NCBI GenBank assembly: GCA_043825135.1
Contig: JBDRSF010000015.1
Span: forward strand, 1,559-65,558
From: Candidatus Magasanikiibacteriota bacterium
GTDB lineage: Bacteria > Patescibacteriota > Patescibacteriia > Magasanikbacterales > UBA922
DNA length: 64,000 nt
Reading direction: 5' to 3'
The position numbers and the translations under genes were made by a program. The notes below the pieces were generated by a model that was not told the DNA's origin, made no database searches, and saw only the letters and a program-made list of their open reading frames with translations. Of this stretch, positions 5,463 through 7,178 are shown piece by piece (the first letter of the stretch is position 1; each line of letters begins with the position of its first letter).

Positions 5463-5849
5463 ATGTATAATAGATTCTATATCTTTGTTTCTTTAATTAT
5501 TCTGGGAATATTTTTTAATTTCCATATAGTCAAGGCTGAACAAATAGATAATTTTACAACCGACATAGTAATTAATTCCGACTCATCTTTGCAAGTGACT
5601 GAAACGATTGAATATGATTTTGGTGGTTTACAAAAACACGGGATTTACCGTGATATTACTAGTAAATACAAACGTCAGGCAGGTAATTACAAAATTAGGA
5701 TAAGTGATGTAGAGGTAACCAATGAGTTGGGTGAAAAATATAATTTTAAAGTCTCTGTTGAAGGTGTATATACTCGAATAAAAATTGGTGATGCTAATAA
5801 ATATATTACTGGCAAAAAAATTTATAAAATTAGATATACTGTGAGATGA
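5463..5849 (+). CDS. DUF2207-like membrane protein, N-terminal part (signal peptide plus extracellular domain), ending at an in-frame TGA
   Basis: 128 aa with N-terminal signal/TM; same reading frame as 5922-7178 across a single TGA (AGA TGA GCA); downstream frame continues [20 protein letters not shown] without a Met. Confidence 0.55.
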   Translation: MYNRFYIFVSLIILGIFFNFHIVKAEQIDNFTTDIVINSDSSLQVTETIEYDFGGLQKHGIYRDITSKYKRQAGNYKIRISDVEVTNELGEKYNFKVSVEGVYTRIKIGDANKYITGKKIYKIRYTVR

Positions 5850-5921
5850 GCAATTAATTATTTTTCTGACCACGATGAACTATATTGGAATGCGACTGGC
5901 GATGAATGGGAAGTACCTATT

Positions 5922-7178
5922 ATGTTTAGTCAAGCAACGGTTCATTTGCCTGATAATTTTTTTACTCAACAAATAGATTATACGTGTTTTAGTGGTTTTA
6001 AAGGTTCTACTAAGGGGTGTTTAGAATCTAATTTTGAAGCTGGTACAGATAAGAAGGGTAATTTAATTGTTTTTAATCAAGACAGGCTTAATTCCAGAGA
6101 AGGGCTGACAGTCGTAGTCGGCATGCCAGCTGGTACTTTGACCAAACCAAGTTTGCTAGAAAAATTTTGGTCATTTTTGCAGGATAATTATATTTTATTC
6201 TTGCCTATTTTAGTTTTTGTAATCATGTTTTATCTGTGGTGGACTCGTGGTCGTGATCCAGAAGGTCGTGGTACCGTCATTACTCAATTTGATGCACCAG
6301 ATAAATTATCTCCGCTTGAAATTGGTACATTGATAGATGAAAAAGCTAATGATGGGGATTTGTCGGCTCAATTAATTTACTTGGCCACCACAGGTTATCT
6401 TGATATTACAAAAGTTGATAGTAGAAAAGATTATATTTTGCTCAAGAAAAAAGACCTACCTGATTCAGCCAAGGAGTTTGATAAGGAATTTTTTCAAAAA
6501 TTATTTTCTAATGGCAAGACTCAGGTTCAATTGTCTACTTTAAAATATAAATTTGCTGATACTGCTAACAAGGTAAGAAAATTGGCTTATGAAGCTTTAA
6601 CAAAAGAAGGTTATTTTGCGGGCAATCCTAAGAAAGTAAGGGATTTTTATATAGTGTTGGCAATAATTATTTGGATCGGGTCAATGATTGTAGCTTTCAA
6701 AATTCAAAATATTCCTTTGGTAATAAGTAGTTTTATTGGTTGTTTGATTATCTTTATTTTTGGTTTTTTTATGCCAGCTAGAACTAAAAAAGGTGTTTTG
6801 GCTCGCGAACATATCTTAGGTTTAAAAACTTATTTAAATGTGGCTGAAAAAGATAGAATTAATTTTCACAACGCTCCAGAAAAGGAACCAAAATTATTTG
6901 AAAAGCTTTTGCCATTTGCCATGGTGTTGGGTGTAGAGGAAGTTTGGGCTAAACAGTTTACCGGAATTTATGACCAAGAACCAAATTGGTATCATAGCGA
7001 TATAAAATCTTATTCAGCCGTAGCTTTGGCCAATAGGTTGATTGATTTTAAATCTGTAAGTACAAATAATTTAACTGCCGTACGTTCTAGTGGTGGTGCT
7101 GGTGTTGGTAGAAGTGGTTTTGGTGGTGGCGGATTTTCTGGTGGAGGTTTTGGCGGTGGGGGAGGAGGGAGTTGGTGA
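5922..7178 (+). CDS. DUF2207-like membrane protein, C-terminal part with Gly-rich tail (most likely one 571-aa protein with 5463-5849)
   Basis: Three TM helices flanking a large soluble domain; C-terminal tail GGAGVGRSGFGGGGFSGGGFGGGGGGSW typical of DUF2207 proteins; in frame with the upstream ORF across one TGA. Confidence 0.55.
   Translation: MFSQATVHLPDNFFTQQIDYTCFSGFKGSTKGCLESNFEAGTDKKGNLIVFNQDRLNSREGLTVVVGMPAGTLTKPSLLEKFWSFLQDNYILFLPILVFVIMFYLWWTRGRDPEGRGTVITQFDAPDKLSPLEIGTLIDEKANDGDLSAQLIYLATTGYLDITKVDSRKDYILLKKKDLPDSAKEFDKEFFQKLFSNGKTQVQLSTLKYKFADTANKVRKLAYEALTKEGYFAGNPKKVRDFYIVLAIIIWIGSMIVAFKIQNIPLVISSFIGCLIIFIFGFFMPARTKKGVLAREHILGLKTYLNVAEKDRINFHNAPEKEPKLFEKLLPFAMVLGVEEVWAKQFTGIYDQEPNWYHSDIKSYSAVALANRLIDFKSVSTNNLTAVRSSGGAGVGRSGFGGGGFSGGGFGGGGGGSW

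What the first reader, a model, noticed from the sequence alone, without database searches (positions are those of the whole stretch)
5463..7178. DUF2207-like membrane protein interrupted by a single in-frame TGA
ORFs 5463-5849 and 5922-7178 are in the same frame separated only by TGA (…[28 protein letters not shown]…). The downstream part has no Met for 24 codons. Together they give the typical DUF2207 architecture of signal peptide, extracellular domain, TM helices and Gly-rich tail. Options are a nonsense-mutation pseudogene, a sequencing error, or UGA readthrough/recoding. TGA is a rare stop in this window (about 9 of ~60 genes).
Basis: seen in the sequence. Interest (0 to 1): 0.5.

Follow-up and report, generated by a model that had tools for sequence, protein, structure and literature searches.

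The report
DUF2207 gene broken by nonsense mutation
A conserved membrane-protein gene (DUF2207 family) in a Candidatus Magasanikbacteria genome carries one premature TGA stop where relatives have an arginine codon, which is an ordinary recent CGA-to-TGA point mutation and not a change in how the genetic code is read.

Summary
ORF 5463-5849 and ORF 5922-7178 share one frame. They are separated only by TGA at 5847-5849 plus 24 codons without a start codon. Joined, they give a 571-aa DUF2207 protein colinear with 119 full-length homologues.

At the TGA position the homologues have Arg (108), Lys (6), Trp (3), Gly (1) and Asn (1). The two syntenic orthologues are single uninterrupted genes with CGG and CGA there, so the simplest history is a CGA>TGA C-to-T transition.

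TGA is a working stop in this genome. It ends this same gene exactly where 114 of 120 aligned sequences end (…GGSW), and it ends five other genes. No other TGA-split gene occurs in the 64 kb. No SECIS-like element or stable RNA structure follows the stop.

An independent Logan assembly (SRR26275509) carries the same TGA, so an assembler artefact is unlikely.

The rest of the gene shows no decay and is as conserved as the intact orthologues. The lesion is therefore young: a recent pseudogene or a loss-of-function allele.

One possibility remains open. Basal UGA readthrough inserting Trp could still give some full-length protein, since Trp (TGG) occurs naturally at this site in one clade. Nothing indicates that such readthrough is programmed. 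The finding is ordinary.

The parts
5313..5384 (+). tRNA-Trp(CCA) gene immediately upstream. It is context only. The order L33 - tRNA-Trp - DUF2207 is also seen in orthologous locus L029.
   Evidence: ARAGORN; Rfam tRNA, 64.8 bits; L029 intergenic sequence
5385..5407 (+). Terminator-like hairpin followed by a T-run. It separates the tRNA from the DUF2207 gene.
5453..5458 (+). TATAAT hexamer 4 nt before ATG 5463, with no Shine-Dalgarno sequence. It is a probable -10 box of a leaderless or very short-leader mRNA (inferred).
   Evidence: Read directly from the sequence
5463..7178 (+). Whole DUF2207 reading frame: 571 sense codons if the TGA is read, plus the true stop.
5463..5846 (+). 5' ORF of 128 codons: hydrophobic signal-peptide-like N-terminus (residues 4-26) and the first half of the beta-sandwich DUF2207 N domain.
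5847..5849 (+). Premature TGA, in the context AGA TGA GCA. It aligns with Arg in 108 of 119 homologues. The orthologue codons are CGG (L002) and CGA (L029).
5850..5921 (+). 24 in-frame codons with no start codon ([24 protein letters not shown]). This is the most conserved motif of the N domain and it is fully retained. It would be translated only if the TGA is read through.
5922..7175 (+). 3' ORF of 418 codons, starting at the first ATG after the stop. It holds the second half of the beta-sandwich, a TM helix, a cytoplasmic domain, two TM helices, the DUF2207_C domain (nt 6288-6959) and the Gly-rich tail (nt 7086-7175).
7176..7178 (+). Genuine TGA terminator of the gene, after ...GGGGGSW. This is the same C-terminus as the homologues.

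Best explanation
This is a real, evolutionarily young nonsense mutation in an otherwise intact DUF2207 membrane-protein gene. A conserved Arg codon, most parsimoniously CGA, changed to TGA by a single C-to-T transition. Under the standard bacterial code that this genome uses, translation ends after residue 128. That yields half of the extracytoplasmic beta-sandwich and no membrane anchor, so the gene is a fresh pseudogene or a loss-of-function allele in the sampled population.

Shown: the lesion itself, the Arg ancestry, the intact syntenic orthologues, TGA acting as a true stop elsewhere, and the presence of the same base in a second assembly.

Inferred: that the truncated product is non-functional, and that any full-length protein arises only from unprogrammed basal UGA misreading.
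For: (1) Position 129 is Arg in 108 of 119 full-length homologues.
(2) The two nearest orthologues (68% and 66% identity) are single genes in the same gene order, TspO - L33 - DUF2207 - HI0933-like oxidoreductase. Their codons at this site are CGG and CGA. TGA is therefore one transition away.
(3) TGA is a functional stop here. It ends this same gene at ...GGSW, where 114 of 120 aligned sequences end. It also ends five other genes, including the neighbouring HI0933-like gene, whose Pfam match runs to residue 414 of 418.
(4) No other TGA-split gene occurs on the coding strand in 64 kb, nor in the orthologous loci.
(5) The Logan contig from SRR26275509 covers window 3380-9242. It differs at one base (4064) and has the same TGA.
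(6) Rfam gives no SECIS hit near the stop at E up to 10. The 100 nt around and after the stop fold no better than shuffled sequence (z = 0.47).
(7) The stop falls in a turn between strands 118-127 and 131-133, in the middle of a confidently modelled beta-sandwich (pLDDT about 90). Neither fragment holds a whole domain.
Against: The gene shows no second lesion and no sign of relaxed constraint. Its mean identity to 27 outgroups is 0.496, against 0.495 and 0.488 for the intact orthologues. It departs from consensus at 7 of 162 highly conserved columns, against 9 and 9. The 24 codons between the TGA and the next ATG keep every near-invariant residue. This fits a very recent mutation: the 95% bound is under about 0.036 neutral substitutions per site since the event. 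It fits continued selection through readthrough equally well. Read-level allele frequencies were not available, and the two assemblies may derive from the same or related read sets.
Confidence: 0.76

Rival explanations
1. Tolerated or functionally relevant UGA readthrough. Near-cognate decoding of UGA, most likely by tRNA-Trp(CCA), would give enough full-length protein with W129 to keep the gene under selection.
For: The ORF is otherwise perfectly conserved, including the 24 codons that only readthrough could translate. Trp is naturally tolerated at this exact position: three homologues forming one syntenic clade encode it with genuine TGG. The internal TGA is followed by G, whereas all six genuine TGA stops are followed by T (Fisher p = 0.003). 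From my own knowledge, not tested here: U after a stop gives the strongest termination in E. coli, and UGA is read as Trp at low level in Bacillus subtilis. The adjacent tRNA-Trp has a U11-A24 pair, the configuration of the E. coli Hirsh UGA suppressor (read). That configuration is probably common among bacteria and was not surveyed.
Against: No relative has a stop at this site: 0 of 119, and the Trp homologues use TGG, not TGA. There is no stimulatory RNA structure. The lesion is known from one population only. Basal readthrough is usually far below 10% (general knowledge). All the supporting facts are equally expected for a mutation that is simply recent.
Confidence: 0.1
2. Sequencing, assembly or consensus error. 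The organism really has CGA or AGA at this codon and an intact gene.
For: The source is a metagenome-assembled genome. The lesion is a single base, the gene is otherwise flawless, and no read-level data could be examined.
Against: Two assemblies built by different pipelines, the NCBI MAG and the Logan contig of SRR26275509, agree on T at 5847 while differing at position 4064, so they are not copies of one consensus. The site is not in a homopolymer or a repeat. No other broken genes were seen in the 64 kb.
Confidence: 0.07
3. Functional split gene. A secreted 128-aa N-fragment and a separately initiated 418-aa C-fragment (ATG 5922), or the 317-aa product annotated at NCBI, would work as two polypeptides.
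For: Both pieces are called as ORFs. NCBI annotates a 317-aa C-terminal CDS, MFH1946759.1. Genes in this genome mostly lack Shine-Dalgarno sequences, so an internal ATG is not obviously worse than real starts.
Against: The cut lies inside a single beta-sandwich domain. The C-fragment would lack a signal peptide for its roughly 90 extracytoplasmic residues. All 119 close homologues are single chains of 551-631 aa. The untranslated 24-codon linker is perfectly conserved, which is not expected if the split were old and functional.
Confidence: 0.05
4. Genetic-code change or selenocysteine. UGA would be a sense codon in this organism (code 4 Trp, code 25 Gly, or Sec).
For: The organism belongs to the Candidate Phyla Radiation, in which Gracilibacteria and Absconditabacteria read UGA as Gly (PMC9297842). 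TGA is the rarest stop in the window.
Against: TGA ends six genes at homologue-supported C-termini, including this one. There is only one in-frame TGA in 64 kb. The aligned residue is Arg, not Gly, Trp or Cys. The window holds no tRNA(UCA). There is no SECIS hit or hairpin. PMC9297842 applied code 25 only to Absconditabacteria and Gracilibacteria and the standard bacterial code to all other CPR genomes.
Confidence: 0.02

Closest known systems
DUF2207 family membrane proteins (Pfam PF09972 + PF20990; e.g. SMU.243 of Streptococcus mutans)
   Same: Both Pfam domains score far above their gathering cut-offs. The protein is colinear over its full length with 119 Patescibacteria homologues and has the same GGGFGGGGGGSW C-terminus. 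Molecular function is unknown. Deleting SMU.243 reduced acid and oxidative stress tolerance and biofilm formation in S. mutans (PMC10457818).
   Different: This copy carries a premature stop at codon 129. Every other member examined is uninterrupted.
Ordinary bacterial nonsense pseudogenes or loss-of-function alleles arising by CGA>TGA transition
   Same: A single-base lesion at an Arg codon, intact syntenic orthologues, and no recoding signal.
   Different: There is no further decay yet, so it is very young, or may still be polymorphic in the population.
UGA-to-Gly reassignment (code 25) of Gracilibacteria and Absconditabacteria, and UGA-to-Trp (code 4) of Mollicutes
   Same: A CPR bacterium with low G+C (about 35%) and an in-frame UGA.
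   Different: UGA still terminates genes here, only one gene is affected, and the aligned residue is Arg.
Low-level UGA decoding by tRNA-Trp (B. subtilis natural readthrough; E. coli Hirsh suppressor). This is recalled from the literature and was not tested here.
   Same: The tRNA-Trp(CCA) next door has a U11-A24 pair. Trp is tolerated at this site in some homologues.
   Different: There is no evidence that readthrough occurs here or is selected. The stop is not conserved in any relative.
Bacterial selenoprotein genes (UGA plus a downstream SECIS hairpin)
   Same: An in-frame UGA in a conserved protein.
   Different: There is no SECIS hit or stable hairpin, and homologues have Arg rather than Cys or Sec.

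Membership tests
DUF2207 protein family | Matches to PF09972 (N domain) and PF20990 (C domain) above the gathering scores | tested here: met
   106.3 bits against a cut-off of 24.4, and 144 bits against 33, for the joined protein
DUF2207 protein family | Full-length colinearity with family members, including the TM segments and the Gly-rich C-terminus | tested here: met
   45-69% identity to 119 homologues; 114 of the 120 aligned sequences, this one included, end in GGSW; model with TM helices
DUF2207 protein family | Encoded as one uninterrupted ORF | tested here: not met
   TGA at 5847-5849; all 119 homologues are single chains of 551-631 aa
Nonsense-mutation pseudogene / loss-of-function allele | A disabling lesion relative to intact orthologues in conserved synteny | tested here: met
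   L002 and L029 carry single genes of 568 and 567 aa in the same neighbourhood
Nonsense-mutation pseudogene / loss-of-function allele | The lesion is explained by one point substitution from the ancestral sense codon | tested here: met
   Orthologue codons are CGG and CGA; the window has TGA
Nonsense-mutation pseudogene / loss-of-function allele | The lesion is reproducible in independent sequence data | tested here: met
   The Logan SRR26275509 contig L001 has the same TGA and differs from the window at position 4064. Whether the two assemblies used independent reads is unknown.
Nonsense-mutation pseudogene / loss-of-function allele | Relaxed selection or further decay after the lesion | tested here: not met
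   No excess divergence and no second lesion. This is compatible only with a very young lesion.
Nonsense-mutation pseudogene / loss-of-function allele | Absence of full-length protein | not testable with these tools
   Needs proteomics or ribosome profiling
UGA-reassigned genetic code (code 4 or 25) | Many in-frame UGAs at conserved Trp or Gly positions across genes | tested here: not met
   One in-frame TGA in 64 kb, at an Arg position
UGA-reassigned genetic code (code 4 or 25) | UGA is not used as a terminator | tested here: not met
   Six genes end in TGA, two of them checked against homologue or Pfam C-termini
UGA-reassigned genetic code (code 4 or 25) | tRNA with anticodon UCA present, and RF2 lost | tested here: inconclusive
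   None among the 4 tRNAs in the window. The rest of the genome was not available.
Selenoprotein gene | A SECIS hairpin directly downstream of the UGA | tested here: not met
   No Rfam hit at E up to 10; folding z-score 0.47
Selenoprotein gene | Homologues with Cys or Sec at the aligned position | tested here: not met
   R 108, K 6, W 3, G 1, N 1
Programmed stop-codon readthrough | The stop codon is conserved at the site in related genomes | tested here: not met
   0 of 119 homologues. The three Trp-bearing homologues use TGG.
Programmed stop-codon readthrough | A leaky context or a stimulatory downstream structure | tested here: inconclusive
   The +4 base is G, against T at all six genuine TGA stops. 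There is no structure.

The most novel reading that the evidence does not exclude
In this Shine-Dalgarno-poor CPR bacterium, UGA may be an intrinsically leaky stop unless it is followed by U. If so, the UGA-G at codon 129 would be read by tRNA-Trp often enough to make a functional W129 DUF2207 protein, a residue that one natural clade already uses. The gene would then persist under selection despite the 'nonsense' codon.
Probability: 0.07. Interest if true: 0.4.

Novelty: already known. Interest (0 to 1): 0.1.

Why it matters
It matters little beyond annotation. The public record hides the lesion by annotating only a 317-aa C-terminal CDS (MFH1946759.1). The locus should instead be flagged as a DUF2207 pseudogene with an internal stop. 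It shows that this widely conserved Patescibacteria membrane protein can be lost, or is being lost, in one population. If readthrough were shown, it would be a small data point on UGA leakiness in CPR bacteria.

Tried and rejected
(1) I searched for the 33-mer around the site, with N at the mutated base, in GTDB genome contigs and in JGI metagenome contigs. Both gave 0 matches, so no second population is available to show the ancestral allele.

(2) The search for related loci with alignment A1 on genome contigs returned only distant DUF2207 loci (25-45% identity, other phyla). These say nothing about this lineage.

(3) A contig look-up of P0003, the NCBI 317-aa product, found nothing on record. 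The Logan contig was reached through the 128-aa ORF instead.

(4) I suspected that the three homologues with Trp at position 129 were code-4 translations of TGA. This is rejected: all use TGG and have no internal stops.

(5) I suspected a second split gene, the SPFH/Band_7 ORF 57180-57797 plus the same-frame ORF 57855-58193. This is rejected: several stops lie between them and the downstream 'ORF' does not look like protein.

(6) The three same-frame ORFs 22474-27573 separated by TAA are separate genes (unknown, methylase, helicase), not one interrupted gene.

(7) The SECIS and RNA-structure searches were negative.

(8) Foldseek of the model against the PDB gave only domain-level beta-sandwich resemblance to ribophorin-1 and the N domains of M1 aminopeptidases (TM-score 0.2-0.26). 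This is too weak to assign a function.

(9) Literature searches for UGA readthrough in Patescibacteria found nothing.

Full report
**1. The observation**

The window has ATG at 5463. After 128 sense codons comes TGA at 5847-5849, in the context GTG AGA TGA GCA. The same frame then stays open to TGA at 7176-7178. The first ATG, GTG or TTG after the internal stop is ATG 5922, 24 codons downstream. Across the whole 64-kb window, this is the only place on the coding strand where two long same-frame segments are separated by a single TGA.

**2. What the gene is**

Joined across the stop, the 571-aa product matches both halves of the DUF2207 family:
- PF09972, residues 28-220, 106 bits.
- PF20990, residues 276-499, 144 bits.

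The 128-aa ORF alone reaches only profile positions 2-90 of 172 in the N domain, so the stop cuts a domain in half.

A search of about 5.8 billion proteins found thousands of relatives. The named hits among the best 120 are almost all from Patescibacteria, and all but one of the 120 are full length with both domains. The one exception, P0003, is a 317-aa C-terminal fragment, 100% identical, annotated at NCBI as 'MAG: DUF2207 domain-containing protein [Candidatus Magasanikbacteria bacterium]' on a 67,292-nt contig. That contig is evidently the source of the window.

An AlphaFold2 model built on 31 sequences has mean pLDDT 81.8 and shows these features:
- An N-terminal hydrophobic helix.
- A beta-sandwich at residues 27-222.
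- A long TM helix at about 243-263.
- A mixed alpha/beta cytoplasmic module.
- Two TM helices at 389-436.
- A helical C-terminal domain.
- A disordered Gly-rich tail at 542-571.

Codon 129 sits in the turn between strands 118-127 and 131-133 of the sandwich. Foldseek against the PDB gives only a generic sandwich resemblance, to ribophorin-1 and the N domains of M1 aminopeptidases (TM-score about 0.2-0.26).

The family has no known molecular function. In Streptococcus mutans, deleting the DUF2207 gene SMU.243 lowered acid and peroxide tolerance and biofilm formation (PMC10457818).

**3. What stood at the TGA**

In an alignment of 119 full-length homologues, the column has Arg 108, Lys 6, Trp 3, Gly 1 and Asn 1. 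It is flanked by invariant Y125 and A130.

The two nearest relatives are P0001 (68% identity) and P0002 (66%). Both lie in the same gene order as the window: TspO, ribosomal protein L33, DUF2207, HI0933-like flavoprotein. L029 also has tRNA-Trp between L33 and DUF2207. L002 has Fpg upstream and RecQ downstream, as the window does. Both are single genes, of 568 and 567 aa, and their codons at this site are CGG and CGA.

The window's TGA is therefore one C-to-T transition away from CGA, the classic route to a nonsense codon. AGA>TGA is an alternative, since AGA is the commonest Arg codon here, but it would need a transversion as well as a different ancestral codon.

**4. Is UGA a sense codon here? 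No.**

The same gene ends in TGA directly after …GGGGGSW, which is where 114 of the 120 aligned sequences end. Five further genes end in TGA. One is the neighbouring HI0933-like gene, whose Pfam match runs to residue 414 of 418. No other gene in the window, or in the orthologous loci, is split by TGA.

The four tRNAs in the window are Thr, Thr, Trp(CCA) and Val. PMC9297842 applied code 25 only to Absconditabacteria and Gracilibacteria, and the standard bacterial code to all other CPR genomes.

Selenocysteine is also excluded. No Rfam family other than the tRNA comes near significance in 5200-7300. The 100 nt around and after the stop fold no better than shuffled sequence (z = 0.47). No homologue has Cys at the site.

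**5. Is it an artefact? Probably not.**

The exact 128-aa and 418-aa ORFs are also on record from a Logan assembly of run SRR26275509. That 5,863-nt contig equals window 3380-9242 apart from one base at 4064, a Tyr/His difference in the Fpg gene. It carries the same GTGAGATGAGCAATT. Two pipelines thus produced different consensus sequences that agree on the T.

I could not inspect reads, and I could not find the species in GTDB representative genomes or in JGI metagenome contigs. A population-level polymorphism therefore remains possible.

**6. How old is the lesion?**

The gene shows no other damage:
- Mean identity to 27 outgroup homologues is 0.496, against 0.495 and 0.488 for the two intact orthologues.
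- It departs from consensus at 7 of 162 highly conserved columns, against 9 and 9.
- The 24 codons between the TGA and the next ATG ([24 protein letters not shown]) keep every invariant or near-invariant residue.

In this AT-rich gene, 248 of 5,130 possible single substitutions create a stop. That gives about 83 x d new nonsense mutations expected for a neutral divergence of d. The absence of a second stop bounds d below about 0.036 at 95%. So the lesion is either recent or the frame is still being selected.

**7. Mechanism and rivals**

The best-supported reading, at about 0.76, is an ordinary young nonsense allele. Translation stops after residue 128, giving half a sandwich domain with no membrane anchor, and the gene is inactivated.

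The only rival of any interest is tolerated readthrough (about 0.10):
- Three homologues in one syntenic clade carry a genuine TGG (Trp) at this very position. A Trp inserted by near-cognate tRNA-Trp would therefore probably be functional.
- The internal TGA is followed by G, whereas all six genuine TGA stops are followed by T (p = 0.003).
- The adjacent tRNA-Trp has a U11-A24 pair, like the Hirsh suppressor. This comparison comes from memory and was not surveyed.

Against this rival, the stop is not conserved in any relative, no stimulatory signal exists, and every supporting fact is equally expected for a recent mutation.

The other rivals rank lower:
- A sequencing or consensus error (about 0.07) is disfavoured by the second assembly.
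- A functional two-polypeptide split (about 0.05) is disfavoured because the cut falls inside one domain, the C-fragment lacks a signal peptide, and the untranslated linker is conserved.
- A code change or selenocysteine (about 0.02) is effectively refuted.

**8. Comparison and novelty**

This is a DUF2207 family member by every sequence criterion except an intact ORF. As a phenomenon it is a standard CGA>TGA nonsense pseudogene or allele. Nothing here is new in kind.

The practical consequence concerns annotation. The public record shows only a 317-aa C-terminal CDS and conceals the interruption. Interest is low.

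Noticed in passing
window-wide; e.g. 5453-5458, and upstream of ATGs at 2138, 25177 and 47683: Almost none of the roughly 55 genes has a Shine-Dalgarno sequence. Their upstream regions are A/T-rich, and several ATGs lie 4-8 nt after a TATAAT hexamer, which suggests leaderless or very short-leader mRNAs. This fits the reported frequent absence of the anti-SD motif in a subgroup of Parcubacteria (PMC9297842).
   Followed up: partly
window 7176, 8426, 13828, 29299, 37796, 40897: All six genuine TGA stops are followed by T (Fisher p = 0.003 against TAA/TAG stops). Three of them are TGG-TGA-T, so those proteins end in Trp. This may reflect selection for a strong UGA termination context, or it may be chance in a small sample.
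   Followed up: partly
window 4064: This is the only difference between the window and the Logan SRR26275509 contig: T versus C, Tyr215 versus His in the Fpg (formamidopyrimidine-DNA glycosylase) gene. It indicates strain-level variation in the sampled population.
   Followed up: partly
window 22474-27573: Three consecutive ORFs lie in one frame, each separated by a single TAA: a 173-aa protein with no Pfam hit, a 722-aa N6/N4 DNA methylase and a 798-aa ResIII/SNF2-type helicase. Together they look like a type III-like restriction-modification or defence module.
   Followed up: partly
window 30631-31062: A 143-aa protein consisting only of an RF-1 (peptidyl-tRNA hydrolase) domain, like ArfB/YaeJ, a ribosome-rescue factor.
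   Followed up: no
window 12346-13206, 16411-17457, 28582-29301, 33249-33692, 43212-44075: A cluster of mobile-element or defence-flavoured genes: two Bro-N domain proteins, a RhuM + Fic protein, an HTH + SocA/Panacea antitoxin-like protein, and a DUF559 endonuclease-like protein.
   Followed up: no
window 59364-60254: A NUDIX hydrolase domain is fused to the N-terminus of GrpE (296 aa) in the hrcA-grpE-dnaK operon.
   Followed up: no
window 58340-58550: CIRCE-like elements (TTAGCACTTGAC … GAGTGCTAGCA) lie upstream of hrcA (58608). The 0.8-kb stretch 57800-58600 between the SPFH gene and hrcA has only doubtful ORFs, including an 86-aa ORF on the minus strand at 57904-58164, and no Rfam hit.
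   Followed up: partly
window 33773-37798: A 1,341-aa protein whose only Pfam hit is a lamin-tail domain (residues 705-812). It is probably a large surface protein.
   Followed up: no
L030-L033 (homologous loci): In one clade of Patescibacteria DUF2207 genes, located next to an ornithine carbamoyltransferase gene, the otherwise conserved Arg129 is replaced by Trp (TGG).
   Followed up: yes
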